From Squalus acanthias (lineage: Eukaryota): 64,000 nt of DNA. The notes under the pieces were generated by a model, which saw nothing but the letters and a program-made list of their open reading frames with translations, did no database searches and was not told where the DNA came from. The stretch spans positions 1,860,001 to 1,924,000 of the forward strand of contig CM059442.1 in NCBI GenBank assembly GCA_030390025.1. Reading direction: 5' to 3'. The position numbers and the translations under genes are program-made. Shown piece by piece: positions 1,915 to 64,000 of this stretch. Position 1 is the stretch's first letter. Every line of letters begins with the position of its first letter.

Positions 1915-4384
1915 TAAGGGAAGATTTACCAGAATGGCACGAGGCCTGAGCAACTTCAGTTATTTAGAGAGATAAGAGAATAAGGAATGTTTTTTCTCCT
2001 GAGCGCAGAGAATGTTAAGGTGTGATGTATCAGTAATATACCGGGAATGAGGGACTTCAGTTCCGTGGAGACACTAGAGGAGGTGGGATTATTCTCCTTA
2101 GAGCAGTGAAGGTGAAGTGGAGATTTAACAGTCTGGTATCGGGAATGAGGAACTTCAGTTTGTAGGACAGATGAGAGAAGCTGCGTTTGTTCTGTTGTAA
2201 TCAGCAAGGAACAAAGAAGAGGGATTAAATACCGATAAGCAAATAATATGAAAAAAACGCAGGGTGCAGTCAACAGTTACAGGAAATGCTTACAACGGAA
2301 AACTGTGGTTTCACCTCAGAAGCGCTTCACGTCGCACAATGAAGCATTTAACCCCTGACATTGACAACAGTGCATCAGAACCAAGACTGAGGCTAAACAT
2401 ATTGAAGGATAATGCATGTTGGGAATATCTCTGATATGTTTTAAAACCGTATCATTAGTTAATTATTTGAATATCACCACAGTTAGAATCAGATATTTAT
2501 AGAATAATTGAGCATTGAAGGAGTTCACTCGGTCCAACCTGCCTGTGCGGCACTTTGAAAGAGCAATTCAATTAGACCCTTTGATAGTCTTTAACGACCT
2601 AAACCTGCACGTGTTTCCTTTTCAAGCATTTAAAAAATTCACTTTTGACAGTTACAATAAGAGGTTCACAAAGAGATTGATTCTCAGATATTAATTAATT
2701 AATAAAATTGAAATCCAGTTTTTTAATTTACATCAGGGTTAACATTCCACCGAGAATTTCCTAAACTATAAATTAGTGGCGTGAACACATACACAATGTG
2801 TGAAATAGGAGCATAAAAACCGCATCTTAGCCCTGTATTGTGCTACACATGTAACTTTGACTTGAAATAAATGTAGTTTGTTTCAGAATCCAAAAAAATA
2901 AAATGAGTAAACGGCATCGGAAATATAAGATTTAAATCATCTTTGCAGGAAAATGAAATCCATGTGCTTCACATTTCTTTTATCTGAAAAATAAGTCAGC
3001 TTGAATCACTGTGGGAAATGTAGTAAACTTGAAAGTGTAGTAAGCAGTGAGGAGGCTAGCAGCAGACTTCAGGAGGGCAGAGACAGGCTGATGAAATGAA
3101 CAGAAACGTGGCAGATTCCATTTAATGCAGAAAAATGTGAAGAGATGAATTTTGGGTAGGCAAATGAGAAGAAACAATATGAAGGAAATTATAAAATGTT
3201 ACAGGGCATTCAAGGTGCACATAAACAAGATAAGTTGTTCAATATATTCTAAAAACTTTAAGATTTTGTCTTTAAAAGTTGAGGTATAATGTACAAAAGG
3301 AAGGAGCTGTTGCTAATCCTTTGTATATCACTGGTTAGGCTTCAGCTTGAGCAATGTTTCCAATTCTCAGCACCATAACTTAGGAAGGATGTCACGACCT
3401 TGTAAAGGATGCAGAGAAATTTACCAGAATGGTGCCATGGATGAGGGAATTCAGTTATGTAGAATAAGTAGAGAAGCTGGGATTGGTCTCCTTATGGGAG
3501 AGAGGTATATGGAAAGATTTACCAGAATGGCACGAGGCCTGAGCAATTTCAGTTATGTAGAGAGCTTAGAGAAACTGGGATGTTTTTTCTCCTTAGAGCA
3601 AAGAAGGTTATGGTGTGATGTATCTGTAATATACTGGGAATGAGGGACTTCTGTTTAGTGGAGAGAGTAGAGAAGGTGGGATTATTCTGCTTAGAGCAGT
3701 GAAGGTGAAGTGGAATTTACCAGTACGGTAGCGGGGATGAGGGACTTCATTTATGAGGAGGGACTAGGAAAGGTGGCATTATTCTCCTTAGAGCAGTGAA
3801 GGTGAAGTGGAGATTTACCAGTACGGTATCGGGGATGAGGGACTTCAGTTTGGAGGACAGATGAGAGAAGCTGGGGTTGTTCTGGTGTAATCTGCAGGGA
3901 ACAAAAACGAGGAATTAAATACCGATAAGCAAAGAAGATGAAAAAAATTTCAGGCTGCAGTCAACAGTGACAGGAAATTCTTACAACGGAAACCTGTGGT
4001 TTCAGCTCAGAAGCGCTTCACGTCGGACAATGAAGCATTTAAAAACTGACATTAACAACAGGGCATCAGAACCAAGCCTCAGGATAAACAGATTGAAGGA
4101 TAATGCATGGTGGAATCTATCTGATGTGTTTTAAGCCCTATAATTAGTTAATTATATGAATACCAACAGAGTTAGAATCAGACATTTATAGAATAATAGA
4201 GCAGAGAAGGAGGTCACTCATTACAACCTGCATGTGCGGCTCTTTGAAAGACCTATCCAATTCGGCCCTTTCAGAGAATTTATCCTCCTAAACCTGCACG
4301 TGTTTCCTGTTCAAGCATTTAAACAATTCCCTTTAGACAGTTACAATTAGATATCCAGAAACAGATTGATTCTCAGACATTAAT

Positions 4385-19145: not shown

Positions 19146-19688
19146 ATACGGTGGTATACTCTATTATACTGAGTTAGATTTATTACAGTGCACTATTTGG
19201 TGTGGTGATGCTGCGTCATCCATTTACCAAGACCACACAATGAAACAAATGGTTTAATTTCGGCTCCTAAGTGAGATTGACTGATTTTGAGCCGATGCAG
19301 TCCGTATAGTGAAGATGCTCTCACAATGCTATTGGGTAGGGATTTCCAGGATTTGAACCCAGCGATAATATTCTGTGCAAGTCAGGATGGTACTTGACTT
19401 GGAGGTGAACTCCCGCACCTGCTGCCCTTGGTCTTCCTGCTGGTGGAAGTCGCAGCTTTGAGAGGAGCTGCCGAAGAGGTCTTGGCGGTTTGCTGCCGTG
19501 CATCCGGTAGATAGTACACACTGCAGCCACCGTACTCCGCTGGTGGAGGGAGTGGATGCTCAGGTTTAACGTGGAAGAGCTGGATCAAATATCAAAGTTG
19601 CAATTTTCATAGAACGTGCGGTGAAAATCGAGCCTGTGTTGTGAGTCTCAGCCCTCATTTCCTTGTCTTTTCCCGCTCTTGTTAACAG

Positions 19689-20605
19689 TGAATTTGGTGG
19701 CAGTTGTGATCCTGTCGCGGGGAAGGTGCGGACTCTCCAGATGCATCACTCACTACCTGGTGGGCATGGCAGCGACGGATATGCTGGTCATCCTCACTGT
19801 GGTGATACTGAACCGGATCGGTGGGATTTATTACCGGGACAGTTGGCTCTCCACCACTCCCGCCTGTAGTCTCAGTACGGTTCTGGTTTACACAACCAGA
19901 GACAGTTCGGTCTGGTTAACGGTCGATTTCACTTTCGATCGATTCGTAGCCATTTGTTGGCAGGAGCTGAAAACGAGATATTGCACCGAGAAAACGGCGG
20001 CTGAGGTTATAGCGGCTGTTTTTACGCTGAACTGTTTGAAAAACATTCCCTTTTACTTTACATACCAGCCGTTGTATATCGTCAACAGAGTGCCCTGGTT
20101 CTGTGACATCAAATTAAGCTACTACACTTCCCCTGCATGGAAAGCCTACGACTGGCTCGAACGTATATTAACACCGTGTTTCCCTTTCGATCTGATTCTG
20201 CTTCTCAATGTTCTGACCGTCAGGCACATTGTAGCGGCCAGTCGAGTCCGCAGGGGACTCCGGGGTAACAGGGACGGTGAGAATTACAGGGACCCAGAGA
20301 TGGAGAACCGGAGAAAATCTATCATTTTACTGTTCGCGATTACCCTCAGTTTCCTGCTGTTGTGGATAACGTACGTCGTTCACTTCCTGTACGTCAGAAT
20401 TATAGACGATTCTTATTTCACTGGTTTGAATTTCAATGACCAACGCTTTATTCTCCAAGAAAGTACAAACATGCTCCAGCTCCTCAGCTCCTGCACCAAC
20501 ACCTTTATTTATGCAGTGACCCAGACTAAATTCAGAAAAGAGTTGAAGAATGCGGGGACATTTCCCCTCACTTTGGTTGAGAATTGCTTTAAGCATTGCA
20601 AGTGA
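19689..20605 (+). CDS. Exon 2 of class A GPCR, GPR139/GPR142-like (~328 aa with exon 1), possibly an incipient pseudogene
   Basis: Acceptor ttttcccgctcttgttaacag. Open frame with TM segments, MAATD (TM2), FTFDRFVAIC (DRY-like), KSIILLFAI (TM6) and NTFIYAVTQTKFR (NPxxY-like plus helix 8). AATAAA at 20758. Confidence 0.92.
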
Positions 20606-35615: not shown

Positions 35616-35829
35616 CTAAAAATAAGAATTTGATGAAATCGTCACAAACGGTTTCGCGATATCGTTTCAGTGAGCACACAGAGGGATTTCTTCTCTCATT
35701 GACCTATCGTTAGTATGGGATCCAAGATGAGAAAGGCTATAGCTTAATGAGATATTGAATAATAACACATTTAAAGGGATTTAGAGCAGATGCAAGCAAA
35801 ATGATTGAAGTAAGTGAAACCTGCCTGGA

Positions 35830-37720
35830 TTAGTGTTTGATTGTGTTTGAATGTGTGTGATTGTGTGTGTGTTTGTGTGTGTGTCTATGTGTGTGTCTGT
35901 GTGTTGTAATATGAACGTGTGTTTGAGTGTTTGTCTGTGTGTTTTAACATGAGTGTGTGTCTGTGTGTTTTAATATGAGGGTGTGTTTGAGTGTGTTTAT
36001 GTGTGCTTTAATATGTGTGTGTGTTTGAGTATGTGTGTGTTTTAACGTGAGTGAGTGTTTGAGTGTGTGTATGTGTGCTTTAATATGTGTGTGTGTTTGA
36101 GTATGTGTGTGTTTTAACGTGAGTGAGTGTTTGAGTGTGTTTATGTGTGCTTTAATATGTGTGTGTGTTTGAGTATGTGTGTGTTTTAACGTGAGTGAGT
36201 GTTTGAGTGTGTGTATGTGTGCTTTAATATGAGTGTGTGTTTGCGTGTGTGTGTGTGTGTGTTTTAATATGAGTGGGTGTTTGAGTGTGTGTGTGTTTTA
36301 ATATGAGTGTGTGTTTGACTGTGTGTGTGTGTGTTTTAATATGAGTGGGTGTTTGAGTGTGTGTGTGTGTTTTAACATGAGTGTGTGTTTGACTGTGTGT
36401 GTGTGCTTTAATATGAGTGTGTGTTTGAGTGTGTGTGTGTGTTTTAATATGAGTGTGTGTGTGTGTGTTTTAATATGAGTGGGTGTTTGAGTGTGTGTGT
36501 GTGCTTTAATATGAGTGTGTGTTTGCGTGTGTGTGTGTGTTTTAATATGAGTGTGTGTTTGAGTGTGTGTGTGAGTTTTAATATGAGTGGGTGTTTGAGT
36601 GTGTGTGTGTTTTAATATGAGTGTGTGTTTGACTGTGTGTGTGTGTGTTTTAATATGAGTGGGTGTTTGAGTGTGTGTGTGTGTTTTAACATGAGTGTGT
36701 GTTTGACTGTGTGTGTGTGTTTTAATATGAGTGGGTGTTTGAGTGTGTGTGTGTTTTAATATGAGTGTGTGTTTGACTGTGTGTGTGTGTGTTTTAATAT
36801 GAGTGGGTGTTTGAGTGTGTGTGTGTGTTTTAACATGAGTGTGTGTTTGACTGTGTGTGTGTGTTTTAATATGAGTGGGTGTTTGAGTGTGTGTGTGTGT
36901 TTTAATATGAGTGTGTGTTTGACTGTGTGTGTGTGCTTTAATATGAGTGTGTGTTTGAGTGTGTGTGTGAGTTTTAATATGAGTGTGTGTTTGAGTGTGT
37001 GTGTGAGTTTTAATATGAGTGGGTGTTTGAGTGTGTGTGTGTGTTTTAATATGAGTGGGTGTTTGAGTGTGTGTGTGTGTTTTAATATGAGTGTGTGTTT
37101 GAGTGTGTGTGTGAGTTTTAATATGAGTGTGTGTTTGAGTGTGTGTGTGAGTTTTAATATGAGTGTGTGTTTGAGTGTGTGTGTGTGTTTTAATATGAGT
37201 GTGTGTTTGAGTGTGTGTGTGAGTTTTAATATGAGTGTGTGTTTGAGTGTGTGTGTGAGTTTTAATATGAGTGTGTGTTTGAGTGTGTGTGTGTGTTTTA
37301 ATATGAGTGGGTGTTTGAGTGTGTGTGTGTTTTAATATGAGTGGGTGTTTGAGTGTGTGTGTGTGTTTTAACATGAGTGTGTATTTGACTGTGTGTGTGT
37401 GCTTTAATATGAGTTGTGTTTGCGTGTGTGTGTGTGTGTTTTAATATGAGTGGGTGTTTGAGTGTGTGTGTGTTTTAATATGAGTGTGTGTTTGACTGTG
37501 TGTGTGTGTTTTAATATGAGTGGGTGTTTGACTGTCTGTGTGTGCTTTAATATGAGTGTGTGTTTGCGTGTGCGTGTGCGTGTTTTAATATGAGTGGGTG
37601 TTTGAGTGTGTGTGTGTTTTAATATGAATGTGTGTTTGAGTGTGTGTCTGTGTGTTTTAACATGAGGGTGTGTGTTAGTGTGTGTATGTGTGCTTTAATA
37701 TGAGTGTGTGTTTGAGTGTG
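35830..37720. repeat. TG-rich minisatellite, ~28-32 bp unit (ttttaatatgagtgtgtgtttgagtgtgtg), ~60 copies
   Basis: Directly visible. The core is homogeneous and the edges degenerate. Confidence 0.98.
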
Positions 37721-39075: not shown

Positions 39076-40002
39076 CTAAATGAGATAAAGGGAAACAGCG
39101 GAACCAAGTTAATCAACAGTTTCTGCACAAAATATATACTCTGCAGCTTAACGGAAGCCAGCAATAGGCAGTGGATCCAGAGTGAATTCCAAAACAGAAA
39201 AAATAAATAAGCAATTAAAAGTTTGATATAAAATCATAGAATTGCACTGAACGATATGAGTCCATTTCGCCCATCGTGCCTGTGCCGGCTCTTTGAAATA
39301 GCTATAGAATTAGTATCACAACTCTGCTCATTCCTCACAGCCCTGCATTGTTTCTCATTTTCAAGAATTTATCCGGTTCCCTTTGGAATCTTCATCTCAC
39401 CTCTGTTTTTTGCCAGTTATCTTAAATCTGTGCCCTCTGGTTACCGACCCTCCTGCCAGTAGAATCAGTTTCTGCTTATCTACTGTATCGTAAACCCTCA
39501 TCATGTTGAAAAATTCCATTAAATCTCCCGTTAACATTCTCTGCTCTAAGGTGAACGACCCCAGATTCCCTTGTCGCTTCACATAAAATGACATAGCATT
39601 TCCAACACTCGCGATACTGAATTGTATCGATTCCTTGGATTTGCACTGTTTCGATAAAGTGCCTCAGATGTTCAAAGTCTGTCTCACTTCTTCTCTGTTT
39701 TTCTTATAAAAGACACGCATTAAATCAGTGCTGCAAAATTAGCGAATCAGTAATAAAGTCGGCGGGGGTTTGGCACGCAGGTAACGTCAAAATTCACTGG
39801 GTGAACATGACGCAGCATGAAGATCATTCTCATTGTTCGATTGAATAGGTGCCTCATTAATTATTTTACTCTTTTATTGGATATTAACCGTGTTCTGGGA
39901 ACAAGCGACTCTTCCAAGCTGGCGGCAAAAATATAACAGACTGTGTGTAAATTAGTCAGTTTAATTCGGTATTTTCATTCTGGTCATTGCGTCAAAACTG
40001 CT

Positions 40003-40196
40003 TGTCGTAAGAATGAGCCTTACGCGTGGTGAACTTAAAGTAAGCTTTAATCAACTAAAAAGGTGCTACATACAAAAGAGGTCTTACTCTATGCCTCTCC
40101 AGGATGCAACTGATCAGCCCAGTATTTATCCTGGACTAATCACAGGAAGTGATGTAATAAAGTTCAAGTCACAGGAAGCTGTATTGTGTTACCACA
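40003..40196 (-). repeat. 3' LTR
   Basis: Identical to 44060-44253 except for one substitution I could find (gtcttActct vs gtcttGctct). On the minus strand it is preceded by the PPT ggggggggggagaa-like tract at 40197-40208. Confidence 0.97.
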
Positions 40197-40831
40197 TTCT
40201 CCCCCCCCAAAAGATTAGGAGGCCGGGATGAAGTTCGAGTCACAGGAAGCTGTATTGTGATACCACATTCTCCCTCCATTTCGTAGCCGCTGGACGAGGG
40301 AGAGCCGCACCCGTTTGGGTTTTCGTAGCGGTAGAGGGCCCCTAGCCCGTTTACCCGCCGCGGGCCGTGGACCAGAGTCCGAGTGATCCAGCCCGCTCTG
40401 TGAGGGGTCAGGACGATCCTGACTGTGTACTGGTGCCCGAACGGGTGTCGGGCAGGGCTGTGGCAGATCCGTTTCCGAGCGTATGGTACGGGGTGGATCG
40501 TGGCTGCGCGTGCGAGCCCCGACGGGCTCATAGTCAGTCTGCCCCAGGTCGGCACGCTGGGGTGAGGTACCAGCCGGCGTCAGATCCAGATCGTGATGAG
40601 AGGCACCTGGCGAGCCCAGAGATGTGCCTGGTACAATATCATCCCCTGGTGTCCCTCTATGTTTCGGCGGGCAGGGAGCCAGATCCCGCAATGACACGGT
40701 AGATTCCCGACCGTCAGGATACCGAATATAGGCGTAGGTAGGGTTGACGTCAGTGAGCTCAACCTCATCTACCAGGGGGTCATTCTTAGACGCCCGAACA
40801 TATCTTCGGAGTAGCACTGGTCCCGGTGCAG

Positions 40832-43800
40832 TCAGCCACGACGGGAGAGATATCCCATAGGATGAGCGACGTGAAATCGGAAGAACCGTTCATGAGGCGT
40901 CGTATTTGTGGCGGTCGAAAGGAGGGACCGTGTGGAGTGTAATGCGTCTGGAAGTACTGCTTCCCATTGCTGGTTGGGTAGGCACCGAGATCTCAAATCC
41001 AGACGTACCGCATTCCAGATGATAGCGTTAAAACGCTCGACTTGCCCATTCCCGACCGGATGATAAGGCGTCGTTCTGCTGGCAGCAATACCCCGTTCCG
41101 AGAGATAGGCCTTGAGTCCTCCTGACATAAAAGAAGGGCCCCGATCTGAATGAGCATAGGATGCCATGCCACAGAAAGCAAATACCTGCTCAAGGCAGCT
41201 GATAACCGTGGTCGTCAGCATATTGGGGCAGGGAAAGGCAAACGGAAAACGGGAATACTCATCGACCATGGTCAATAGATAAGTGTTGCGAGTTGAAGAG
41301 GGCAACGGCCCCTTAAAATCGATGCTAAGCCGTTGCATTGGCTGGGTCGCATGTATGAGTATACCACCCGAGGGGCGGAAAAACTGAGGTTTCAATTCCG
41401 CACAGACTCTGCAGTCCGAGCACATCTTCTTTACATTCCCGGTAGAGAATGGGAGATTTCGGGACCGCACGAAGTGTAGCATGCGAGTAACGCCCGGATG
41501 ACACAACCCATCATGGATGTCTACGAGCGTAGAGGGTGCCATGGCAGAGCAGAATGCTCGTGTGAGGGTATCCAGAGCCACATTCTCCTTGCCAGGTCGA
41601 TAGTGGATGGTGTAACCAAAAGAGGCCAATTCCAGCCGCCAAAGCTGGATTTTATTATTTTTAATTTTGGTCCGTTTTCGATTATCGAGCATGAAGGCGA
41701 CCGATCGCTGGTCCGTGATTAAGGTAAAGTGCTGGCGAGCTAGGAGATGAGTCCACTTCCGTACTGCCTCTATGATGGCTGTAGCTTCTTTCTCGACTGG
41801 AGGATAATGTAGCTCAGCCCCTTGAAAAGTCCTGGACAAAAATGCCACCGGACGACCTTCCTGATTCAGAGTGGCCGAGATCGCCACCTCCGAGGCATCA
41901 CACTCAACAACAAAAGGAAGACTCTCATCGATGGAGTGAAGAGCCGCTTTCTCCAACTGTTTTTTCAGGAGGTTAAAGGCTGCAACAGCCGCTGTGTCTA
42001 GTGGGAATGTGCTGGCCTTCAGTAGAGGTTGGATTCGGTCCGAGAAGTTAGGAATCCATTTAGCATAGTATGCAAACAGGCCGAGGGCCCGGCGCAAGGA
42101 GGCCAGATTCTTAGGTGGCGGGAGTTCTTGGAGTGGGCGAAGCCTTTCAGGGTCAGGTTTAATGATGCCATTGCCCACACAATAGCCAAGGATGTTGATG
42201 GTTGGTTGTGACTCAATGGATTTAGCCGCATTTAATGTCAAAATACGGTGCTGGAGTGCATCCCAAAATCGTTGGAGATTGGCGTCATGTTCCCGCTGAT
42301 TGCGACCTGCGACAGTAATATTGTCCAGATAAGGAAATGTATCCGTTAAGTCTTCCTGTTTGACCAGGTCATCCATTGCTCGCTGGAAGACAGCCACTCC
42401 ATTAGTGACCCCAAAGGGGAGGCGACGAAATTGATACAGCCGTCCATTGGCTTCAAAGGCCGTATACTGCTTGTCTGAGACCTTCAAGGGTACCTGATGA
42501 TAGGCACTTTTCAGATCATATGTTGAGAACACCGTGTACTCAGTCAGTTTATTAACCATATCATCGATGCGCGGCAATGGGTATGCGTCCAAGTCCGTAT
42601 ATTGATTGATGGTCTGTGAATAGTCAATGCACAGCCGTTTCTTGTGAGGTTGTATATTAGAAATAGTGATTTCAGGTTTGGATCCGCCGAACTCAGTGGT
42701 GAGCTTCTTATGCTGCTTTTGAAAATCTAGCCCTAAGATAAGATCACTACATAAGTCCTTGAGCACCGAAAGCCGGGTGGAGGGATACCTGTGACCATTA
42801 AGTGTTATTTCAACCATACAAAAGCCAGAAATTCTGGTATTAAGTGATGACTGAGCCATCGCAATTGCCTGGTCCGATGGGAAAACATGTAGCTTTAACT
42901 CTGCAACAATCTGTTCCCTAATGAAACTATCAGTGCTAACTGAGTCAATTAAGGCATCTAAAGTATGTCCATTAATTGATGCTTTTGTAGCTGCATGGAA
43001 ATAGTTCTGAGGACAAGCAGCTGTAATTGGTGTCGTTGCACAAAGAGTGGCTGAAACTCTAGGTGTGTTTCTTCGAGAGAAAACCCGAGAGGAAGCACGA
43101 TAGATTTTAGCCGGAACATCTTGATAGGCCCTTACCGGGGCAGTTCGGTAGGACTTAGCTTGATAAGCCCTCGTAGAGGCTCTTGATAGGCAAACCTTTG
43201 CAAAATTACCCTTTTTGTTGCAATGACTGCAAAACGCATTGCGAGCAGGGCAGAATTTCCGAAGGTGAAACTCATCACCACAAAAGAAGCATTTCTTAGA
43301 TTGCCAAGAGGCTGCTACAGTGGGGTCATCATCCTCTTCATCAGTGAAGTCATCAGATTGATCGTCAGGGATAAAGTCCTCCCTAATAGAGTTCACCTGT
43401 GGCCTCTTAAATTGCCTGACTGTAGTTAAGGCAGCAGACCGAGGTCTGGGCACTGTATAAAGGACTGCATTTCTTTTTGCCAGATCTAGAGAGCAAGCCA
43501 TGTCATAAGCTCTCTGAAGCTCAAGTGTCTTACTTTCCAGTAGACGCTGGCGTATAAATGGGGAGGCAAGCCCGCAGATGAAAGCATCACGGATCATTTC
43601 TTCACGGTACAGCTCAGCTGAGGCCGCCTGAAAGTTACAGTCCATACTAAGTCTGCGAAGCTCTTGGAGGAATTTATCAATGGATTCCTCCGGCCCTTGT
43701 TGGGCTGTAGCTAGTAGATGTCTGGCATAGACCTCATTCGGTGTCTTAGTATATAGTCTTTTAAGCGTCCGAATTGCCTCCTCGTAACTGCCCCATTCCT

Positions 43801-43981
43801 CGACATACTGAAATACATTCGGGGTGACACAGTTGATGAGTATCCGCAATTTTGAGTCATCATCAGCCTTGCAATATTCAAGAAAATTGTCAAACGTGCG
43901 ATACCAGTGTTTCCACACCTTACCGGCTGCTGGGGTGTTTGGGTCCAAGTCAAGACGCGATGGTTTAAGGATGTTTTCCAT
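40832..43981 (-). CDS. Gypsy gag-pol polyprotein (1049 aa, defective); integrase C-terminus continues after a frameshift in ORF 40215-40817
   Basis: Cys knuckles (CFFCG...CPARNAFCSHCNKKGN), protease LIDSVS, RT (YDLKSAYHQV, LPFGV, YLDN), RNase H (ECDAS) and integrase (HPG..., SIDF, HSDRG, NGQVER). Confidence 0.95.
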   Translation of the reverse strand: MENILKPSRLDLDPNTPAAGKVWKHWYRTFDNFLEYCKADDDSKLRILINCVTPNVFQYVEEWGSYEEAIRTLKRLYTKTPNEVYARHLLATAQQGPEESIDKFLQELRRLSMDCNFQAASAELYREEMIRDAFICGLASPFIRQRLLESKTLELQRAYDMACSLDLAKRNAVLYTVPRPRSAALTTVRQFKRPQVNSIREDFIPDDQSDDFTDEEDDDPTVAASWQSKKCFFCGDEFHLRKFCPARNAFCSHCNKKGNFAKVCLSRASTRAYQAKSYRTAPVRAYQDVPAKIYRASSRVFSRRNTPRVSATLCATTPITAACPQNYFHAATKASINGHTLDALIDSVSTDSFIREQIVAELKLHVFPSDQAIAMAQSSLNTRISGFCMVEITLNGHRYPSTRLSVLKDLCSDLILGLDFQKQHKKLTTEFGGSKPEITISNIQPHKKRLCIDYSQTINQYTDLDAYPLPRIDDMVNKLTEYTVFSTYDLKSAYHQVPLKVSDKQYTAFEANGRLYQFRRLPFGVTNGVAVFQRAMDDLVKQEDLTDTFPYLDNITVAGRNQREHDANLQRFWDALQHRILTLNAAKSIESQPTINILGYCVGNGIIKPDPERLRPLQELPPPKNLASLRRALGLFAYYAKWIPNFSDRIQPLLKASTFPLDTAAVAAFNLLKKQLEKAALHSIDESLPFVVECDASEVAISATLNQEGRPVAFLSRTFQGAELHYPPVEKEATAIIEAVRKWTHLLARQHFTLITDQRSVAFMLDNRKRTKIKNNKIQLWRLELASFGYTIHYRPGKENVALDTLTRAFCSAMAPSTLVDIHDGLCHPGVTRMLHFVRSRNLPFSTGNVKKMCSDCRVCAELKPQFFRPSGGILIHATQPMQRLSIDFKGPLPSSTRNTYLLTMVDEYSRFPFAFPCPNMLTTTVISCLEQVFAFCGMASYAHSDRGPSFMSGGLKAYLSERGIAASRTTPYHPVGNGQVERFNAIIWNAVRLDLRSRCLPNQQWEAVLPDALHSTRSLLSTATNTTPHERFFRFHVAHPMGYLSRRG

Positions 43982-44059
43982 GATGGGTGATTCCCTGGAT
44001 CCTTAGTTCCGAGTTCGTCCAAAAAGTTTGAGTGCGAAGTTTTTCAAAGTTGATTAAAT

Positions 44060-44253
44060 TGTCGTAAGAATGAGCCTTACGCGTGGTGAACTTAAAGTAA
44101 GCTTTAATCAACTAAAAAGGTGCTACATACAAAAGAGGTCTTGCTCTATGCCTCTCCAGGATGCAACTGATCAGCCCAGTATTTATCCTGGACTAATCAC
44201 AGGAAGTGATGTAATAAAGTTCAAGTCACAGGAAGCTGTATTGTGTTACCACA
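44060..44253 (-). repeat. 5' LTR
   Basis: The minus strand contains TATA-like GATAAATA and the poly(A) signal ATTAAA. Confidence 0.97.
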
Positions 44254-44864
44254 CTGCTCATGCGAGGAGAGAAAGAGATGACCTAATGTTTCAGGTGCGG
44301 GCCTTGGTCAGAACATCCTGCTCTCTCCACAGACGCCGACTGAACTGTTGTATATTTCAAACAGCTGATAGTTTTTTTTGCTTTTTTGCTTACTATGTTA
44401 AAATGAACTTTTGTTAAAGTCGCTAACGTGGATATATTTTTTTCTCAGCTTCCCTAGGGGGCAACCTTGGACAATTAGAGAATCGTTGAGGAACTACAAG
44501 AGAAAGCGAGTGAATCAAACTTTTAATCGGAGTTGGAGAAGTAAAACCATTCAATGATTAGCGCTTTAATTCGGCCATCAGTCACGCGGTAAGTAGCGAA
44601 CATTTAAGGGAATAAGTTTCAAAGGGTATTCGGGCACTGGGGCAAAAGCGGGCATTGTCGCATCGCACGCCTGTACAGTTCGATAGGACGGGGTTTAAGG
44701 CGGGCGGCCTATGAGACACCATCCAAGAAGAATTTTAACACCTGGATGTCATTTCCACGGCAGTTTTAATCGTTAAACAGAAAATCTGATGCGGACTAGC
44801 AATAACTCAAAAACTCCTTGTACTGGGGTACGATGAATACAGAGACTGTGTGAATCTCACTCAC

Positions 44865-47032: not shown

Positions 47033-49266
47033 CTGTGGTAAAATAAATGGAAAGAAGATCGGAAATGGATTTCTGCATTTTCTTGTGCCATGAAATGCTG
47101 GTAACTCAATAACGATTGTGTCGTGTTAAATTGAAATGTTCGCATCGGCGATTGAGATTCGACAAAAGGGGGAATTGAAGGCTTCAAACAGAAATTGGAC
47201 AGAAACAAATCATTTGGGGATCTTGTTCCAAAACCTGGGCTTATAGCTGAAATTTCCATCTTTGATACCAGGAGAAGAAGTGTTCGTTTGAAATTCACAT
47301 TTCTGAAAATTTCGTCTAGCCATACGGATTAAAAGGAATGAGCAACTCCCATAAACCGTGTGGAGTTGCATTTCACATAAAGCAGTTCAGGGTTGCTGGG
47401 CTCTAGAATGTGGGCTTCGCTGGCAAGTCCAGCATTTAGTGCCCGACCCCAGTTGCCCTTGAGAAGATGGTGGTCGGCCTTCTTCTTGAACCCATTTGTG
47501 TTCCCACAATGCTGTTCGGTATGGACTTCCAAGATTTTGTGCGAGCGACGATGAAGGAACGCCAGATATATCTCCAAGTCAGGATGGTGTGTGAATTGGA
47601 GGTGGAACTAGGAGATGATGCTGTCCCGATGCAACTACTGCCACCCTCCTTTTTGATGATGAAGGTCGAGGGTTTTCGAGGTGTAGACGAAATGCAATCC
47701 ATTGAGGGATATGGAAACCTAAAATGTACTTAAGTTAAAATATTTCGCTTATCAGGATGTTTTTCTACATCACGTTACACAGTTTCGGTTACCTGACGGA
47801 GACTCTGTAATCTGACAAGGCCAGCCAGTCTGGCGGTGCCTCATGAGGTGAATATACACTCAGTGGAGTTAAAAATCTGGCAGGATTAAGCCATTTGACA
47901 TTAAACATTCCACTGTGGAAGTTGCAGACATTTAGGGAGTAAATTTGGAAATCAGAGTCATATTTGGTGTGTTTATAACAGACAGCCTGCAGTTCCCCAG
48001 TCAGAATATCTTATCTGCACATCGCTAATTATCGGGTCTCTCAGCTCCATAACACTGCATTCCGACAGTACTCAGTCACAGGGGCAAGTGCAAACTAGCA
48101 CGATATTACACTCCATCCAAGTCAATGGAGGGTATAATTGGGCGGAGATTAAAACGTAAGGCCGATCCCTATCCGCCTCTTTCCCGCCTGGAGGATGTGG
48201 TTAGATTTACCCTCCAAGTGTCGCCGCGGACTGTGAGCTCACGTTTTTCGTTGGGGTTGAATTCACAACATTCAGACGCAATGGAGTATAAAATCGTCTT
48301 TTACAGTAGCCTAAAGCAGGCGATAACACATCGTCAGCACGTTTTACACATCGCCTGATTTCCGTTCCCATTGCCTACAATGGAATCAGATACCGGGCGG
48401 GTGTGAATCGGGCGGCCGATTCGCTTTCGCCCGTTTTGCACGCCCTCCCGTGACGAATTTCACACCCTTATCTCCAGTAACGCTGTTTGCCGCTAACAGG
48501 TGCACAGCGAGTGATTGCACGGCCCAATGCTTCATGAATTCTGTCAAGAGTTGAGCAATAAGATTAAAACCTAACCCCACTATTTAAGAAAGGAGGGAGA
48601 GAGAAAACGGGGAAACACAGACTAATTAGCCTGACATCAGTAACAGGGCTAATGTTCGAATCTGTTATTGAGGAAATGGTAATGGGCACTTAGAAAATAA
48701 TAATAGTATTGGGCAAAGTTAACACGGATTTATGAAACTGAAATCGTGTTTGACAAATCTGTTAGTGTTTTTTGAGGTTTTAACTAGCAGAATAGCTAAG
48801 GGGGAATCAGTGGATGCGGTGCATTTGGATTTTCGGAAGGCATTCGATAATTTGCCACACAGGAGGTTAATAAACAACATTAGGGCACATGGGATTGGGG
48901 ATAATATATTTTCATGAATTGAGGATTGGTTAACTGACAGAACACAGAGAGGAAGAATAATAGGGTCATTTTCGGGTTGGCAGGTTCTAACTAGTGGGGT
49001 AACGTAAGGTTCAGTGCTTGGGCCTCAGTTATTCACAATCTACATCAATGCTTTGGATGAAGGGATCAATTGTAATATATCCAAGTTTGCAGTTGATACA
49101 AAGCTCGTGCAACATAAGTTGTGAGGAGTATGTAAGAAGGCTTCAAGGTGACATTGACAGGCAAAGTGAGTGGGCAAGATCATGGCAAATGTAATAAAAT
49201 GTGGAGAAATGTGCATCTAGAAACAGGGTCCAAAGTCTCAGTTTAAGGGGTCGGCCATTTAGAAAT

Positions 49267-51109
49267 TTAGGAACACTCCTCGCCACGATGGACGTCTCGG
49301 CACTCTACACCAGTATCCCCCACAATGACGGCATCGCTGCGACAGCCTCAGTACTCAACACCAACAACAGCCAATCTCCAGATGCCATCCTACAACTCAT
49401 CTGCTTCATCCTTAACCACAATGTCTTCACCTTCGACAACCAGTTTTTTACCCAAACACACGGAACAGCTATGGGGACCAAATTCGCACCCCAATACCCC
49501 CACATCTTCATGCACAAGTTCGAACAAAACGTCTTCGCTGCACAGGCCCTCCAACTAACGCTATACACCAGATACATCGACGACATTTTCTTCCTATGGA
49601 CCAAAGGCGAAGAATCACTGAAAAGACTACCCGATAACATCAACAAGTTCCATCCCACCATCAAACTCACCATAGACCACTCCTCAGAATCAGTTTAATT
49701 CTTTGACACACGAATCTCCATCAAAGACGGATACCTCAGCATTTCACTCTACCGCAAGCCCACGGACAACCTCACGATGCTTCACTTTTCCAGCTTCCAC
49801 CCTAACCACGTTAAAGAAGCCATCCCCTATGGACAAGCACTGCGAATACACAGGATCTGCTCAGACGTGGAGGAACGCGATGGACACCTGCAAACGCTGA
49901 AAGACGCCCTCGTAAGAACAGGATATGACGCTCGACTTGTGGATCGACAGTTCCGACGGGCCACAGCGAGAAATCGCATAGACCTCCTCAGAAGAAAAAC
50001 AGGGGACACAACCAACAGAGTACCCTACGACGTCCTGTACTTCCCCGGAGCGGAGAAACTACGCCATGTTCTTCGGAGCCTTCAACATGTTATTGATGAC
50101 GCCAAACACCTCGCTAAGGCCATCCCCACGCCTCCACTCCCCGCCTTCAAACAGCCCCCTAACCTCAAACAGACTATCGTTCGCAGCAAATTACCCAGCT
50201 TTCAGGAGTACAGCGTCCACGACACCACACAACCCTGCGACAGCAACCTCTGCAAGACATGCCAGAGCATCAACACAGATACCATCATCACAGGTGAGGA
50301 CACCACCCACCAGGTACATGGTACATACTCATGTGACTCGGTCAAAGTTGTCTACCTCATACGTTGCAGGAAAGGATGCCCTGGAGCATGGTACATCAGC
50401 GAGACCATGCAGTCACTGCGACAATGTATGAACGGACACCGCACAACAATGACCAGGCAGGAGTGTTGCCTCCCAGTCGGGGAACAGTTCAGCAATCAAG
50501 GACATTCAGCCTCCGATCTTCGGGTAAGCGTTCTCCAAGGCGGCCTTCGAGACACACGACAAAACATAATCGTCGAGCAGAAATTGATAGCCAAGCTCCG
50601 CACCCATGAGGACAGCTTCAACCGGGATCTTGGCTACATGTCACGCTACAAGTAACCCCACCTGACGTCGAGTCATCTAGAGTCGATTCGTCATTGGCTT
50701 GTTCTCTCTACACAGATGCGGCCGGACCTGCTGTGATTTCCAGCAAAAAAAGTTTTTGTTTTCCATACAGACCCCAGCATCTGCCAGATTTGAGCCCTTG
50801 TGAGCCCACCTCATTGTCTTTGATGTAATGCTTTCCTGACTGACCTGTTTGGACACCATCCACACCTTTGATTGCCGTGATTATCTCTCTGCCGAGGTGT
50901 GATAAAGGGCAGTTAGAAAGATTAACTGTAATCATCTGGCAGTGTTCTCTGACTATATATGCTGTGCCTATATGCATCTCTTTACTTCAACTGACGAAGG
51001 AGCAGCGCTCCGAAAGCTTGTGATTTTAAATAAAGCTGTTGGACTATAACCTGATGTTGTGCGACTTTTCACATTTGCACACCCCAGTCCCAAACCGGCA
51101 TCTCCACAT
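49267..51109 (+). mobile_element. Penelope-like element (RT plus GIY-YIG endonuclease), 5'-truncated, one internal stop
   Basis: MDVSALYTSIPH, GTAMGTKFAP, RYIDDIF and VVYLIRC...WYISET. Terminal repeat with a hammerhead. TSD CATTTAGAAAT (49256-49266 and 51110-51120). Confidence 0.95.
50987..51023 (+). ncRNA. Minimal hammerhead ribozyme in the Penelope terminal repeat
   Basis: TCAA-CTGACGA-A-GGAGC-agc-GCTCC-GAAA-GCTT-GTGA, with one stem I mismatch. Confidence 0.75.
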
Positions 51110-57000: not shown

Positions 57001-59985
57001 AAGCAGCTGATTGGGTGAGTACGGCCAGGTGAGTATTTATACTACTCTGCAGTTTGACAGTTAAGGTTAATAGTTTATAGAGTTTAGTAGGTCCTAATGT
57101 GTGTGGTTATAATTTCTAAGGTCTCTGTTGTGTAGCAGGGAGTGCTAGTATACAAGGGCTCTTGGGTATATCATTTAATTGCAATGTAATTTGTGTTATT
57201 GATTTGAGTTAATTTAAATTAATTTAGAGAAAAGTCATGGCAGCACAGCTCAGCCCCGTGGCATGCTCCTCCTGCGCTATGTTGGAAATAGGGACACTTT
57301 CTGTGTCCCTGTTGACCATGTGTGCGAGAAATGTATCCAGCTGCAGCTCCTGGCAGACCGCATTGCGGCGCTAGAGCTGCGAATGGATGCATACTGGAGC
57401 ATTCGCGATGCTGAGGACATCGTGCATAGCACGTTTAGGGAGTAGTAGGCGCAGGCAGGTGGTGCAGCGGTCCCCTGTGGACATCCCATTCTCAAACAGA
57501 TATACCACTTTGGATATTGTTGTGGGAGATGGCTTATCGGGGGAAGGCAGCAGCAACCAACTTGTTGGCACCATGTTTGGTTCTGCTGCACAAGAGGGAG
57601 GAAAGCGTGCGGGAGAGCTACAGTGATAGGGGATTCTATTGTAAGGTGTATAGATAGGCGTTTCTGCAGCCGAAAACGAGACTCCAGGATGGTATGTTGC
57701 CTCCCTGGTGCAAGGGTCAAAGATGTCTCGGAGCGGCTGCAGGGCATTCTGGAGGGGGAGGGTGAACAGCCAGTTGTCGTGGTGCATATAGGTACCAACG
57801 ATATAGGTAAAACACGGGATGAGGTACTAAAAACTGAATATAGGGAGCTTGGAGGTAAATTAAAAAATAGGACCTCAAAGGTAGTTATCTCAGGATTGCG
57901 ACCGGTGCCACGTGCTAGTCAGAGTAGAAATAGAATGATAATTCAGCTGAATACGTGGCTAGAGGAATGGTGCAAGGGGGAGACATACAAATTCCTGGGA
58001 CATTGGAACCGGTTCTGGGGGAGGTGGGACCAGTACAAATTGGACGGTTTGCACCAGAGCAGGACCGGGACCGATCTCCTAGGGGGAGTGTTTGCTAGGG
58101 CTGTTGGTGAGGATTTAAACAAAAATGGCAGGGGTTGGGAACCTGTGTCATGAAACAGAGGAAAGGGAAGCAAGGATAGAAGCAAAAGACAGGAAGGTGG
58201 AAAGCAAAAGTGGAAGGCAGAGAAATCAAGTGTGTAAATCACACAGGGCTACAGTAAATAATAATTCTAAAAGGACTAAGAGTGGTAAAAAAACAAGCTT
58301 GAATGCTTTGTGTCTTAATGCGAGGAGCATTCGTAATAAGATGGATGAGTTAAATAGAAACATAGAAGATAGGAGCAGCAGTAGGCCATTCGGCCCCTCG
58401 AGCCTGCTCCGCCATTTAATGAGATCATGGCTGATCATCCAAATTCACTACCATGTCCCTGATTTCTCCCCATATCCCTTGCACAAATAGATGTAAACGG
58501 ATATTACATAATTGGGAGTACGGAGACATGGCTCCAGGGTGACCAAGGATGGGAATTCAACATCCAGGGGTATTCAATATTCAGGAAGGACAGAAAAAAA
58601 GGAAAAGGAGGTGGGGTAGCATTGCTGGTTAAAGAGGAGATCAGAACAATAGTAAGAAGGATATTAGCTCTGATGATGTGGAATCTGTATGGGTAGAGCT
58701 GAGAAATAACAAGGGGCAGAAAACGTTAGTGGGAGTTGTATACAGACACCCAAACAGTAATGCTGAGGTTGGGGAAGGCATTAAACGGGAAATTAGAGAC
58801 ACGTGCAATAAGGGCACAGCAGTTATCATGGGTGACTTTAATCTACATATAGATTGGGCTAACCAAATTAGTAACAATACTGTGGAGGAGGTATTTCCTA
58901 GAGTGTATACGGGATGGTTTCCTGGAAAAATATGTAGAGGAACCAACTGGAGATCAGGTCATCGTAGACTGGGTATTATGTAATGAGAAAGGATTAATTA
59001 GCAATCTTTTTGTGCGAGGCCCCTTGGGGATTAGCGGTTATAATATGATAGAATTCTTCATTAAGATGGAGAGTGAAGTAGTTGACTCAGAGACTAGGGT
59101 CCTGAATTTAGATAATGGAAACTACGATGGTATGAGGCGCGAGTTGGCTAGGGTGGATTGGGGAGCGTTACTTAAAGGGTTGACGGTGGATAGGCAATGG
59201 CAAACATTTAAAGATAGCATGGATGAACTGCAGAATTTGTTCATCCCTTTTTGACATAATAATAAAAGAAAAAAGGTGACTCAAACATGGCTAACAAAGG
59301 TAATTAGGGATAGCATAAGATCCAACCAGAGGACATAAAAAATGGCCAGAAAAAGCAGCAAACCTGAGGATTGGGAGCAGTTTAGGATTCAGCAAATGAG
59401 GACAAAGTGGTTAATTAAGAGGGGGAAAATAGAATATGAGAGTAAGCTTTCAGGGAACATAAAAAATGAGCGTAAAAGCTTCTTAGATATGTGAAGAGAA
59501 AAAGATTGGTGAAGTCAAGTGTAGGTCCCTTGCAGTCAGAATCATGAGAATTTATAATGGGGAACAAAGAAATGTCTGAGGAATTAAATACATACTTTGG
59601 TTCTGTCTTCACAAAGGAGGACACAATTGAACTCCCAGATATGTCGGGGAACATAGGGTCTAATGAGAGGGAGGAATTGAATTAAATCACTATTTGTAGG
59701 GAAATGGTGTACGGGAAATTGATGGGATTGAAGGCCGATAAATCTCCAGGGCCTGATAATCTACATCCTAGGGTACTTAAGGAAGTGGCCCCCGAAATAG
59801 TAGATGCATTGCTGATCATCTTTCAAAATTCTATAGACCCTGGAAAAGTTCCTATGGATTGGAGGGTAGCTAATGTAACTCCACTATGTCATAAAGGTGG
59901 TAGAGAAAAAAACGGGGATATATATATCGGTAAGCCTGACATCGGTAGTGGGCAAAATGCTAGAGTCCATTATAAAAGATGTAAT

Positions 59986-60692: not shown

Positions 60693-62414
60693 CAAAATAT
60701 GTAATAGCAGAGCACTTGGAAAACAGTGACAAAGTCAACATGGATTTACAAAAGGGACATCATGCTCGTCTAATCTACTGGAATTTTTTAAGGATGTAAC
60801 TGCTAGAATAGATAAGGAAGAAAGAGTGGATGTGGTGTATTTGGACTTTCAGAAGGCTTTCGATAAGGTCCCACATAAGAGATTAGTGTGCAAAGTTAAT
60901 GCACATGGGATTGGGGGTGAGGTACTGATTTGGATAGAGAACTGCTTGGCAGACAGGAAGCAAAACGTTGGAATAAACGGGTCATTTTCCGAGTGGCAGG
61001 TAGTGATTAATGGGGTACCACAGGGATCGGTGCTAGGACCTCAGCTATTCACAATATATAGTAATGATCTAGACGAGGGTAATAGATGTTATATCTCTAA
61101 GTTTGCAGACGACACAAAGCTTGGTGGGCGTGTGTGCTGTGAGGAGGATGCAGAGAAACTCCAGTATGATTTGGACAGGTTAGGTGATTGGGCAGATGCT
61201 TGGCAGATGCAGTATAATGTGGATAAATGCGAGGTTATCCACTTAGGTGGCAATAACAGGAAGGCAGATTATTATCTGAACGGCAATAGATCGGAAAAAG
61301 TGGAAGTGCAACGAGACCTGGGAGTCCTTGTACACCAGTCGCTGAAGGTAAGCATGCATTTGCAGCAGCCGGTTAAGAAGGCAAATGGTATGTTGGTCTT
61401 CATAGCGAGAGGATACGAGTAAAGGAGCAAGGATGTCTTGCTGCAGTTGTATAAGGCCTTGGTGAGACCACTTCTTGAGTATTGTGTGCAGTTTTCTTCG
61501 CCTTATCTGAGGAAGGAGGTTATTGCCATGGAGGGAGTGCAGCGAACATTTACCAGACTGATACCTGGGATGGCAGGAATCACGTATGAAGAGAGATTGG
61601 GTCGATTGGGCTTATATTCGCTGGACTTTCGAAGAATGAGAGGGTATCTCATTGAAACTTATAAAATTCTAACAGGACTAGACAGACTAGATGAAGGAAG
61701 GATGTTCCCGATGGCGGGGGAGTCCAGAACCAGGGGTCACAATCTAAGGATAATGGGTAAGCCATTTAGGACTGAGATGAGGATGAATTTCTTCACCCAG
61801 AGAGTGGTGAACCTATGGAATTCACTACCACAGAAGGCAGTTGAGCCCAATTCATTAAATATATTCAAGAAGGAGATAGATACATTTCTTAAGGCTAAAG
61901 AGACCAAGGGATATGGGGAGAAAGCAGGGACATGGTACTGAATTTGGATGAACAGCCATGATCTCATTAAATGGCGGAACAGGCTCGAGGTGCCTTAACC
62001 AGAGGTCAGTGACTTAAAATAATTGGGACAAGAAGTAATAGGGACCGGGACCGGAGTAGAATTTTTTTCACACAGATGATTTTTAGAATTGGAAAAGCAT
62101 TATCTGAAAAGATAGTGAAAAAATATTCAATAAGAACAAACAGTTGGGCATGTACATGAAGGATGCTAATTTTCAGCTTTACAGTAAAAGCTGGTCTGTG
62201 GGATTCAATTGTACAACACTTTCAAAGAGCCTTCACAGTCAGGACGGGTGGAATGGCCTATTACAGTTTTGCGAGACTGTATCAGGCTATCAATTTATGC
62301 TCTACTAAAATAGAAAAGGAATTAATGTTAGTCATCTGCTTTAGAGAGGCCATTGCTCACCGAAAGATGGCGCAAATGCACCTTTTGGACATCTAAGGAA
62401 CGTCTAAGATTAAG

Positions 62415-62910: not shown

Positions 62911-63194
62911 AGCAAATGGGGCAGATTTTGCAGTGGGTATGATGACCTACTCAGAGAGCATCCGTCATACCACCTTTGAAATTTACTGCAAGTTCGTGAT
63001 TTTCGCATGTGCTTGTGTATGCGCTAAATCCCGAACCAGCGATCTGTCAAGGTTTGCCTTGACAGATGATCCGCACCGACGGCGAAATACTAAATATTTT
63101 ATAGATTTGGGCTAATTGCCCACCAACTGCCCAGCAATTATGTCCGAAAATGTTACGGTTACTGAAAGCAGGCGCAGGAACCTGTGTCACACCG

Positions 63195-64000
63195 CAGGTA
63201 AAGACTAGGTCAGACAGTAAATGGGTGACCAAGAGGCAGGGCAATATCAGGAAGGTAGTGCAGGAGTCCCCTGCGGTCGTCTCTCTCCAAAACAGATATA
63301 CCGTTTTGGATACTGTTGGGGGAAATGTCCTACCAGGGGAAGGCACCAGCAGCCAGGTTCATGGCACCATGGCTGGTTCTGCTGCACAGCAGGGCGGGAA
63401 AAAGAGTGGTAGAGCTATAGTGATAGGGGACTCAATTGTAAGGGGAATAAACAGGAGTTTCTGTGGCCGCAACCGAGATTCCAGGATGGTATGTTGCCTC
63501 CGTGGTGCAAGGGTCAAGGATGTCTCGGAGCGTCTGCTGAACAATTTGGAAAGGGAGGGTGAAGAGCCAGCTGTCGTGCTGCATGTAGGTACCAACGATA
63601 TAGGTAAAAAGCGGGAAGAGGTCCTACAAGCAGAATTTAGGGAGCTAGGAGCTAAATTGAAAAGTAGGACCTCAAAGGTAGTAATCTCTGGGTTGCTACC
63701 AGTGCCACGTGCTAATCAGTGTAGCATGAACAGGAAAGCGAGATTAAATACGTGGCTTGAGCAGTGGTACAGGAGGGAGGGATTCAAATACCTGAGGCAT
63801 TGGAACCAGTTCTGGGGGAAGTGGGACCTGTACAAAAGGGACAGTCTGCACTTGGGCAGGACTGGAACCGATGTCCTCGGGGTAATATTTGCTAAGGCAG
63901 TTCGGGAGGATTTAAACTAATATGGCAGGGGAATGGGAACCTATGTACCGAAACAGGGGGAATAATATGCAGTCAGAAACAAATGTGAGAAGGGTGAGAA
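63195..64000 (+). mobile_element. CR1 ORF1 (SGNH/GDSL esterase domain), element continues beyond the window
   Basis: LQNRYTVL, VIGDSIVR, LHVGTNDIG and DSLHL. Paralogous to 57480-58150. Confidence 0.92.

What the first reader, a model, noticed from the sequence alone, without database searches (positions are those of the whole stretch)
44048..44113. Gypsy element lacks a tRNA primer site and has an 11-bp fold-back onto its own LTR poly(A) signal
Seen: the sequence after the 5' LTR (minus strand) is ATTTAATCAACTTTG, with no TGG. Its 11-mer TTTAATCAACT (44048-44058) is perfectly complementary to AGTTGATTAAA in the LTR (44103-44113), which contains the ATTAAA signal. Established: Tf1/sushi-type elements self-prime using ~11 nt at the transcript 5' end. 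Here the partner lies ~60 nt downstream of the TATA-like box, apparently not at the cap site. Inference: a different self-priming geometry (possibly from the RNA 3' region), and/or a hairpin that masks the poly(A) signal only in the 5' LTR.
Basis: partly seen in the sequence, partly recalled or inferred. Interest (0 to 1): 0.7.

Follow-up and report, generated by a model that had tools for sequence, protein, structure and literature searches.

The report
Self-priming non-chromovirus Gypsy retrotransposon lineage
This young jumping gene and two dozen distant relatives have no tRNA landing site but a short stretch that pairs with the element's own end-repeat, and faulty copies preserved in the genome suggest that the element likely cuts its own RNA right after that stretch to start copying itself.

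Summary
Observation confirmed. After the 5' LTR come one spacer base and an 11-mer (44058-44048) that pairs perfectly with LTR 44113-44103. In 25 related Gypsy families (gag 36-66% identical to this one) the register is the same, with 19 different partner 11-mers: 22 perfect, 3 near-perfect, 0 of 576 cross-family matches. A tRNA primer is therefore very unlikely. Aberrant insertions in this genome, mostly with 5-bp target duplications, show the junction being used during reverse transcription. In 6 of 8 snap-back copies the minus strand stops at the partner's last base. This supports a Tf1-like cut of the 5' RNA copy and argues against a primer from the RNA 3' end. Poly(A) masking is not the general purpose (hexamer in 13 of 25). 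Whether the RNA starts at the partner (Tf1 geometry, about 0.35) or about 45 nt upstream behind the TATA-like box (about 0.45) is unresolved. The lineage has no chromodomain and looks Mag/Cigr-1-like (no tree built). The scan noted this lineage before on other DNA of this genome. New variant of a known kind.

The parts
44254..44258 (-). target-site duplication, upstream copy (AGCAG)
44060..44253 (-). 5' LTR, 194 bp, TG...CA
   Evidence: 1 mismatch to the 3' LTR
44180..44187 (-). TATA-like box GATAAATA, 74 nt upstream of the partner; TATAAATA with similar flanks in the two sister families
   Evidence: function untested
44157..44158 (-). candidate upstream transcription start (TATA+29/30); the inverted arm of aberrant copy L310 ends here
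   Evidence: one event, inference
44103..44113 (-). partner (putative self-primer end), 11 nt, begins AG, ends in ATTAAA (44108-44103); inferred cut within one base of its 3' end
44090..44102 (-). short predicted hairpin directly 3' of the partner; a stem starting at this position is predicted in most panel families
   Evidence: prediction only, covariation not counted
44059..44059 (-). one-base spacer between LTR end and primer site; not paired with the base after the partner
44048..44058 (-). primer-binding site, 11 nt, complementary to the partner, no TGG
40832..43981 (-). gag-pol ORF (gag with two zinc knuckles, protease, RT with YLDN, RNase H, integrase); this copy lacks about 76 codons at the start of RT and has a frame break in integrase
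40215..40889 (-). integrase C-terminal part in a second frame; no chromodomain or other Pfam hit
40228..40277 (-). second purine tract plus duplicated first ~40 nt of the LTR, also in both other family copies checked
40197..40208 (-). polypurine tract
40003..40196 (-). 3' LTR, 194 bp
39998..40002 (-). target-site duplication, downstream copy (AGCAG)

Best explanation
The 11 bases after the 5' LTR pair with an 11-base stretch of the element's own LTR, and the element likely primes reverse transcription with that stretch after its RNase H would cut the RNA at the stretch's 3' edge. Shown: no tRNA-type site, exact pairing, the same register with different letters across the lineage, and aberrant insertions built on this junction. 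Inferred: in the RNA the 5' copy of the partner pairs with the primer site and the RNA is cut within one base of 44103/44102. DNA synthesis then starts opposite the spacer A44059, copies U5 and the short R, and jumps to the 3' end using the bases between the cut and the poly(A) site. The plus strand can copy the primer and so carry the primer-site sequence at its end. Where the RNA begins is open. For this family I lean slightly to a start about 45 nt upstream behind the TATA-like box, giving a ~55-nt primer of which only the last 11 nt pair (about 0.45), over a start at the AG of the partner (about 0.35). Hiding ATTAAA in the 5' copy is at most a side benefit.
For: Panel: 31 of 37 gag-proximal regions with enough upstream DNA have a perfect inverted repeat of 11-19 bp, and 30 of these 31 beat all 30 shuffles. 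Grouped by eye into 25 families: 22 perfect 11-mers, 2 with G-U pairs, 1 with one mismatch; 19 distinct partners; 0 of 576 cross-family matches; always CA + 1 base + site (the CA and partner were picked by best score, so one search is the independent test). On a MAFFT alignment, 10 of 11 core pairs change on both sides; covariation score 0.519 against 0.169 shuffled and at most 0.138 slid. The family replicates: 1,975 exact LTR-end/primer-site junctions in the genome, many copies with long open frames. Aberrant insertions: all 3 family-A hits where the primer site is followed by non-leader letters continue as an inverted copy of the LTR upstream of the partner. Of 20 family-B hits, 17 are such junctions; 11 of the 16 with two integrated ends have a perfect 5-bp target duplication. 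In 8 of them the minus strand copies U5 and R, snaps back, copies U5, spacer and primer, then U3; it stops at the partner's last base in 6 of 8, and 2 and about 7 bases further in the other two. Two family-A copies share an LTR deletion joined at a 5-base homology starting at the partner's last base. Precedent: Tf1 pairs its first 11 bases with the PBS and RNase H cuts between bases 11 and 12 (PMC7175516, passage); about half of Tf1 cDNA keeps a single-stranded PBS copy (PMC11042837, passage).
Against: No RNA end, cut or cDNA was observed: only contigs of runs guessed to be RNA were available, and they showed no starts, ends or poly(A) tails. The snap-back copies come from sister family B, not the window's family, and some may share a founder. 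Five family-B copies end 11 nt upstream of the AG, which fits neither proposed start; they share one subfamily's letters and may be one or two events. Only one copy with a compensated double change was found over three partner positions, and its 3' LTR lacks the change, so inheritance of the site from the primer is not shown. One family (L062) gave no partner and was dropped because its contig starts 118 nt before gag. The RT motif is D-N rather than D-D in 90 of 120 relatives, and its activity is untested.
Confidence: 0.8

Rival explanations
1. Sub-case of the best explanation with strict Tf1 geometry: the RNA is capped at or within a few bases of the AG (44113), the primer is the first 11 bases, and the TATA-like box is irrelevant or drives a separate RNA.
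For: The partner starts with A in 22 of 25 and has G second in 24 of 25, at a fixed distance from its 3' end, which pairing alone does not require. 21 of 25 families have no TATA-like box within 130 nt. Tf1 uses exactly 11 bases (PMC7175516, passage). A short primer explains most simply how the plus strand ends at the site.
Against: No family has a TATA-like box 25-35 nt upstream of the AG. Pairing extends 1-8 bases upstream of the AG in 21 of 25, although DNA fold-back could also lengthen it. The sister families keep TATAAATA plus a GC box 90-92 nt upstream (39 of 51 and 25 of 27 loci). L310's inverted arm ends at TATA+29 with no microhomology.
Confidence: 0.35
2. The primer is the partner in the 3' LTR of the same or a co-packaged RNA, cut after ATTAAA.
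For: In all 17 family-B and all 4 family-C junction hits the inverted arm runs to the LTR start or on into the polypurine tract and body, which a 3'-end primer would give directly. The 3' partner has no primer site of its own nearby. An earlier scan note (e1-7857552) argues this from mutation footprints.
Against: The same products arise if a DNA end carrying the site anneals to the 3' partner. With a 3' primer the 5' RNA stays uncut and the minus strand should run past the partner, yet it stops at the partner's edge in 6 of 8 snap-back copies and in the L310/L311 deletion. My footprint test found only one co-variant in three positions and could not decide.
Confidence: 0.1
3. The hairpin only hides the poly(A) signal in the 5' LTR; priming uses something else.
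For: ATTAAA lies inside the stem here, and A[AT]TAAA lies in the stem in 13 of 25 families. The stem is predicted with high probability.
Against: 12 of 25 partners lack the hexamer and 4 families have a free one in the loop. Masking does not need a stem that begins exactly one base after CA. It leaves a replicating family with no primer and does not explain the aberrant junctions.
Confidence: 0.05
4. A host tRNA, tRNA half or other small RNA binds the site.
For: Half-tRNA primers without TGG exist in Ty1/copia lineages (PMC6317226, passage). My tRNA check covered only 7 distinct genes of 2 isotypes.
Against: 19 different site sequences each match their own LTR and never another family's. The longest complement to the 7 tRNAs was 5 bases. 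No Rfam hit over 43900-44400.
Confidence: 0.02

Closest known systems
Tf1/Tf2 (Schizosaccharomyces pombe), Tj1, Tosmo1-3 and the Tf1/sushi group of chromoviruses
   Same: Ty3/gypsy, single gag-pol ORF as in Tf1/Tf2, no tRNA site, 11-base LTR partner for the PBS, 5-bp target duplication; inferred cut at the 3' edge of the duplex. The Tf1 PBS begins ATAAC (PMC11042837, passage); this one begins A then TTTAA.
   Different: No chromodomain (0 of 120 relatives by precomputed Pfam; 0 of 5 rescanned). Two gag zinc knuckles (112 of 120) and a D-N RT motif (90 of 120). The partner often holds the poly(A) hexamer and may not be at the cap. Predicted folds show local hairpins, not the three-duplex 'pretzel' (bioRxiv 10.1101/2022.12.06.519325, passage).
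Cigr-1 clade / Mag lineage of Ty3/gypsy elements
   Same: Compact single ORF of about 1,200 aa, short LTRs, double zinc knuckle, aquatic animal hosts (named relatives in shrimp, tunicate, coral, anemone, copepod, isopod, nematode). The Cigr-1 size and the Mag-type knuckle are recalled, not from a call. PMC6238403 supplement 1 lists Cigr-1 under Mag.
   Different: No tree with named references was built, so the clade name is a lead. I found no report of self-priming for this lineage in my searches.
TAR/Houba/Osr-1 (plant Ty1/copia) and Tcn1 elements predicted to self-prime
   Same: Self-priming predicted from PBS-LTR complementarity outside fission yeast (PMC6317226, passages).
   Different: Other superfamily or chromovirus branch; plant, moss and fungal hosts.

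Membership tests
Ty3/gypsy LTR retrotransposon | LTRs with TG...CA, target duplication, PPT, domain order PR-RT-RH-IN | tested here: met
Tf1/sushi group | no tRNA PBS; PBS complementary to the element's own LTR | tested here: met
Tf1/sushi group | self-primer is the very 5' end of the RNA | tested here: inconclusive
   no raw RNA reads; indirect signs point both ways
Tf1/sushi group | RNase H cut at the 3' edge of the RNA duplex | tested here: inconclusive
   indirect support only: minus strand stops at the partner's last base in 6 of 8 snap-back copies; the enzyme is not identified
Tf1/sushi group | chromodomain at the integrase C-terminus (usual, not universal) | tested here: not met
   no PF00385 in 120 of 120 relatives, in 5 rescanned or in the window's C-terminal frame
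Tf1/sushi group | three-duplex 'pretzel' around the PBS | tested here: inconclusive
   predicted folds give local hairpins inside the loop; the folding program cannot form crossing helices
Tf1/sushi group | RT-IN tree nests within chromoviruses | not tested
   no named reference sequences could be loaded; 0 of 16 chromodomain loci in the genome had an RT/IN hit
Mag lineage / Cigr-1 clade | two adjacent gag zinc knuckles, single ~1,200-aa ORF (features recalled) | tested here: met
   112 of 120 relatives have the double knuckle; lengths
Mag lineage / Cigr-1 clade | groups with Cigr-1 or Mag references in an RT tree | not tested
   reference sequences not available through the tools; motif searches in the PMC6238403 supplements found none
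tRNA-primed LTR elements | TGG-starting PBS complementary to a tRNA 3' end | tested here: not met
   0 of 25 families

The most novel reading that the evidence does not exclude
A widespread animal Gypsy lineage outside the chromoviruses self-primes with an internal RNA segment rather than the cap-proximal bases: a TATA-driven RNA is cut right after its own poly(A) hexamer, and the freed 5' piece of 55-70 nt primes through its last 11 bases. Fossil copying errors in the genome map both the cut and, in one copy, the RNA start.
Probability: 0.4. Interest if true: 0.75.

Novelty: new variant of a known kind. Interest (0 to 1): 0.58.

Why it matters
Self-primed reverse transcription has been shown experimentally for Tf1 and is treated as a hallmark of the Tf1/sushi chromoviruses, with predictions for a few plant copia lineages (PMC6317226; bioRxiv 10.1101/2022.12.06.519325). 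A large, active animal lineage without a chromodomain that does the same implies either a further origin or an older, wider trait. It also gives a clear test of whether a self-primer must sit at the cap. Such elements would not depend on tRNA primers. Aberrant insertions give a way to map the cut from genomes alone. The mechanism class itself is known.

Tried and rejected
RNA evidence: no RNA holder on record; 14 runs listed, all contigs. Laying 8 of them showed no starts, ends or poly(A) tails; not used as evidence. Poly(A)-tailed retrocopies: 0 hits. Viral contigs: 44 pattern hits, 0 relatives. Host tRNA set: only Lys and Cys genes returned, too narrow. Chromovirus comparators in this genome: the PF24626 hits were other integrase-bearing elements and the PF00385 hits had no RT/IN nearby, so no tree was built. 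Mutation footprints: 1, 0 and 0 double variants at three positions and 4 LTR-only variants at one position; too few to interpret. Splice-acceptor reading of the AG (lead from the BEL/Pao notes e1-7882409 and e1-7811049): rejected, because the pairing includes and extends past the AG, 3 families have TG there and the nearest donor-like site gives a 33-nt intron (by eye). Assembly fold-back artefact for the aberrant copies: rejected, because 11 of 16 have perfect target duplications. A three-LTR alignment did not line up the family-A box with the TATA boxes of B and C, so their homology rests on shared flanking letters seen by eye. Family-C search for non-leader junctions: 8 hits, of which 1 fold-back, 1 jump into the body and 6 small changes. 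Dropped rows: 41 of 77 outside loci had no detectable gag start; L073, L080 and L125 had too little upstream DNA; L062 gave no partner; 3 of 20 family-B hits were not fold-backs.

Full report
Observation. The finding lies at the 5' end of a 4,251-bp LTR element on the minus strand, 44253-40003. Its LTRs are 194 bp with one mismatch, it has a 5-bp target duplication and a polypurine tract. After the 5' LTR come one A and an 11-mer (44058-44048) that is the exact reverse complement of LTR positions 141-151 (44113-44103), which end in ATTAAA. There is no TGG. Chance expectation is about 1e-4 per LTR. The TATA-like box starts 74 nt upstream of the partner.

The element. One gag-pol frame encodes gag, protease, RT, RNase H and integrase in Ty3/gypsy order. 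This copy lacks about 76 codons at the start of RT and has a frame break in integrase. The family is young and large: 1,975 exact LTR-end/primer-site junctions and many long open frames among 150 scored copies. The best 120 protein relatives are mostly single ORFs of about 1,200 aa, and the named ones come from shrimp, tunicate, coral, anemone, copepod, isopod and nematode. None of the 120 has a chromodomain; 112 have two adjacent zinc knuckles, and 90 have D-N in place of D-D in the RT motif. From recall this resembles the Mag lineage and Cigr-1; a supplement of PMC6238403 lists Cigr-1 under Mag. I could not load named references, so no tree was built.

Conservation. Two sister families (B, C) were found in this genome and 77 loci elsewhere. 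Of these 77, 36 had a detectable gag start, giving 37 starts; 3 had too little upstream DNA. Among the 37 regions tested (34 plus one for each of the three families in this genome), 31 have a perfect inverted repeat of 11-19 bp, and 30 of the 31 beat all 30 shuffles. The six misses were L062, L071, L095, L096, L106 and L124. Grouped by eye and without L062, 25 families remain, with gag 36-66% identical to the window's. All follow CA, one spacer base, site: 22 pair perfectly over 11 bases, 2 with G-U pairs and 1 with one mismatch. There are 19 distinct partners and no site matches another family's region (0 of 576). On an unguided alignment, 10 of the 11 core pairs change on both sides, and 3 of the 4 unpaired core cells come from one misaligned row; the score is 0.519 against 0.169 shuffled and at most 0.138 slid. 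My direct tRNA check was narrow: 7 genes of 2 isotypes, longest complement 5 bases.

Poly(A) masking. A[AT]TAAA lies in the partner in 13 of 25 families, and 4 families have a free hexamer in the loop. The constant features are the register and the ends of the partner, not the hexamer.

Fossil copying errors. Tf1 cDNA can keep a single-stranded PBS copy (PMC11042837, passage), so I searched for copies where the site is followed by something other than the leader. In family A all 3 hits continue as an inverted copy of the LTR upstream of the partner. In family B, 17 of 20 hits have this junction, against 171 exact normal junctions (the patterns differ in tolerance, so this is not a rate). Family C has 4 hits, two of them with the same flank. 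Of the 16 family-B cases with two integrated ends, 11 have perfect 5-bp target duplications, 2 match at 4 of 5 bases, 2 at 3 of 5, and 1 is unclear. They therefore formed before integration. Eight read as a minus strand that copies U5 and R, stops, snaps back onto itself, copies part of U5, the spacer and the primer, and goes on into U3. The stop is at the partner's last base in 6 of 8. The snap-back points differ (21-39 bases), so several events are independent. Family-A copies L310 and L311 share an LTR deletion joined at a 5-base homology that begins at the partner's last base. Inference: the template RNA ends there, so the 5' copy is cut within one base of the duplex edge, as in Tf1, where RNase H cuts between bases 11 and 12 (PMC7175516, passage). 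A primer from the RNA 3' end would leave the 5' copy uncut and is disfavoured. It is not excluded, because every family-B and family-C inverted arm runs to the LTR start or beyond.

Where the RNA starts. For a start at the partner: A then G at a fixed distance in 21 of 25 families, and no TATA-like box in 21 of 25. For an upstream start: no family has such a box 25-35 nt upstream; the three families of this genome have one at 74, 90 and 92 nt, with a GC box in B and C; pairing extends 1-8 bases upstream of the AG in 21 of 25; and L310's inverted arm ends 29 nt behind the box with a blunt jump, a single event. Five family-B copies end 11 nt upstream of the AG, fitting neither reading; they may share a founder. 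The duplex is predicted under both starts. Public runs were contigs only and could not help. I put about 0.45 on the upstream start and 0.35 on the AG.

Comparison with what is known. It works like Tf1 but should not be filed in the Tf1/sushi group: the chromodomain test failed and the tree was not done. Nine answered literature searches returned no report of self-priming in this lineage. What I saw: passages of PMC3601003, PMC6317226, PMC4600332, PMC6238403 (plus rows of supplements 1, 3 and 4; supplement 2 unreadable, 4 cut), PMC8556966, PMC3670739, PMC6934838, PMC11042837, PMC5006619, PMC7175516 and PMC2774666; passages and section 5 of PMC5341516; passages and part 1 of section 28 of bioRxiv 10.1101/2022.12.06.519325 (supplements closed; its figure of primer lengths could bear on this). 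Earlier scan notes describe the same lineage on other DNA of this genome, and one describes a fold-back copy in another genome; they are not independent support.

Verdict. A real, lineage-wide self-complementary primer site with genomic traces of use. New variant of a known kind; interest 0.58, rising to about 0.75 if the primer proves to be internal.

Noticed in passing
window 40228-40277 (-): A second purine tract plus a copy of the first ~40 nt of the LTR sits 71 nt upstream of the 3' LTR, also in both other family-A copies checked. Aberrant copy L311 jumps into it.
   Followed up: partly
P0002 and relatives: The RT catalytic motif reads D-N instead of D-D in 90 of 120 relatives and D-D in 22, in a lineage that is clearly replicating. 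One paper search for YLDN with retrotransposon gave one unrelated title.
   Followed up: partly
L337, L340, L342, L343, L348 (family B): Five small insertions made of U3, partner, inverted U5-R-partner, all ending 11 nt upstream of the AG; 3 have perfect target duplications. A defined RNA end, a cryptic integrase site or one amplified founder.
   Followed up: partly
L279 (G000:C3218): One family-C copy has a compensated double change in partner and primer site; its 3' LTR lacks it and its flanks do not match, so it is probably a recombinant.
   Followed up: yes
G000:C1:566510-575028: Three family-A junctions spaced 4,247 bp apart on one strand, suggesting a tandem array of elements.
   Followed up: no
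L126: A relative whose 5' region carries the LTR end and primer site twice in tandem.
   Followed up: no
window 19625-20605 (+): Uninterrupted 326-codon frame matching rhodopsin-family 7TM receptors.
   Followed up: no
window 309-1925, 49198-49698, 60730-61422; 57449-58153, 63105-63920: Fragments with RT matches and two GDSL-esterase frames, probably LINE-type retroposon pieces (the LINE reading is recalled).
   Followed up: no
window 35776-37400: Long G/T-rich tandem repeat with 16-20-bp spacing.
   Followed up: no
L289, L291: Elements elsewhere in this genome with a YVDD RT motif and integrase, retrovirus-like; not studied.
   Followed up: no
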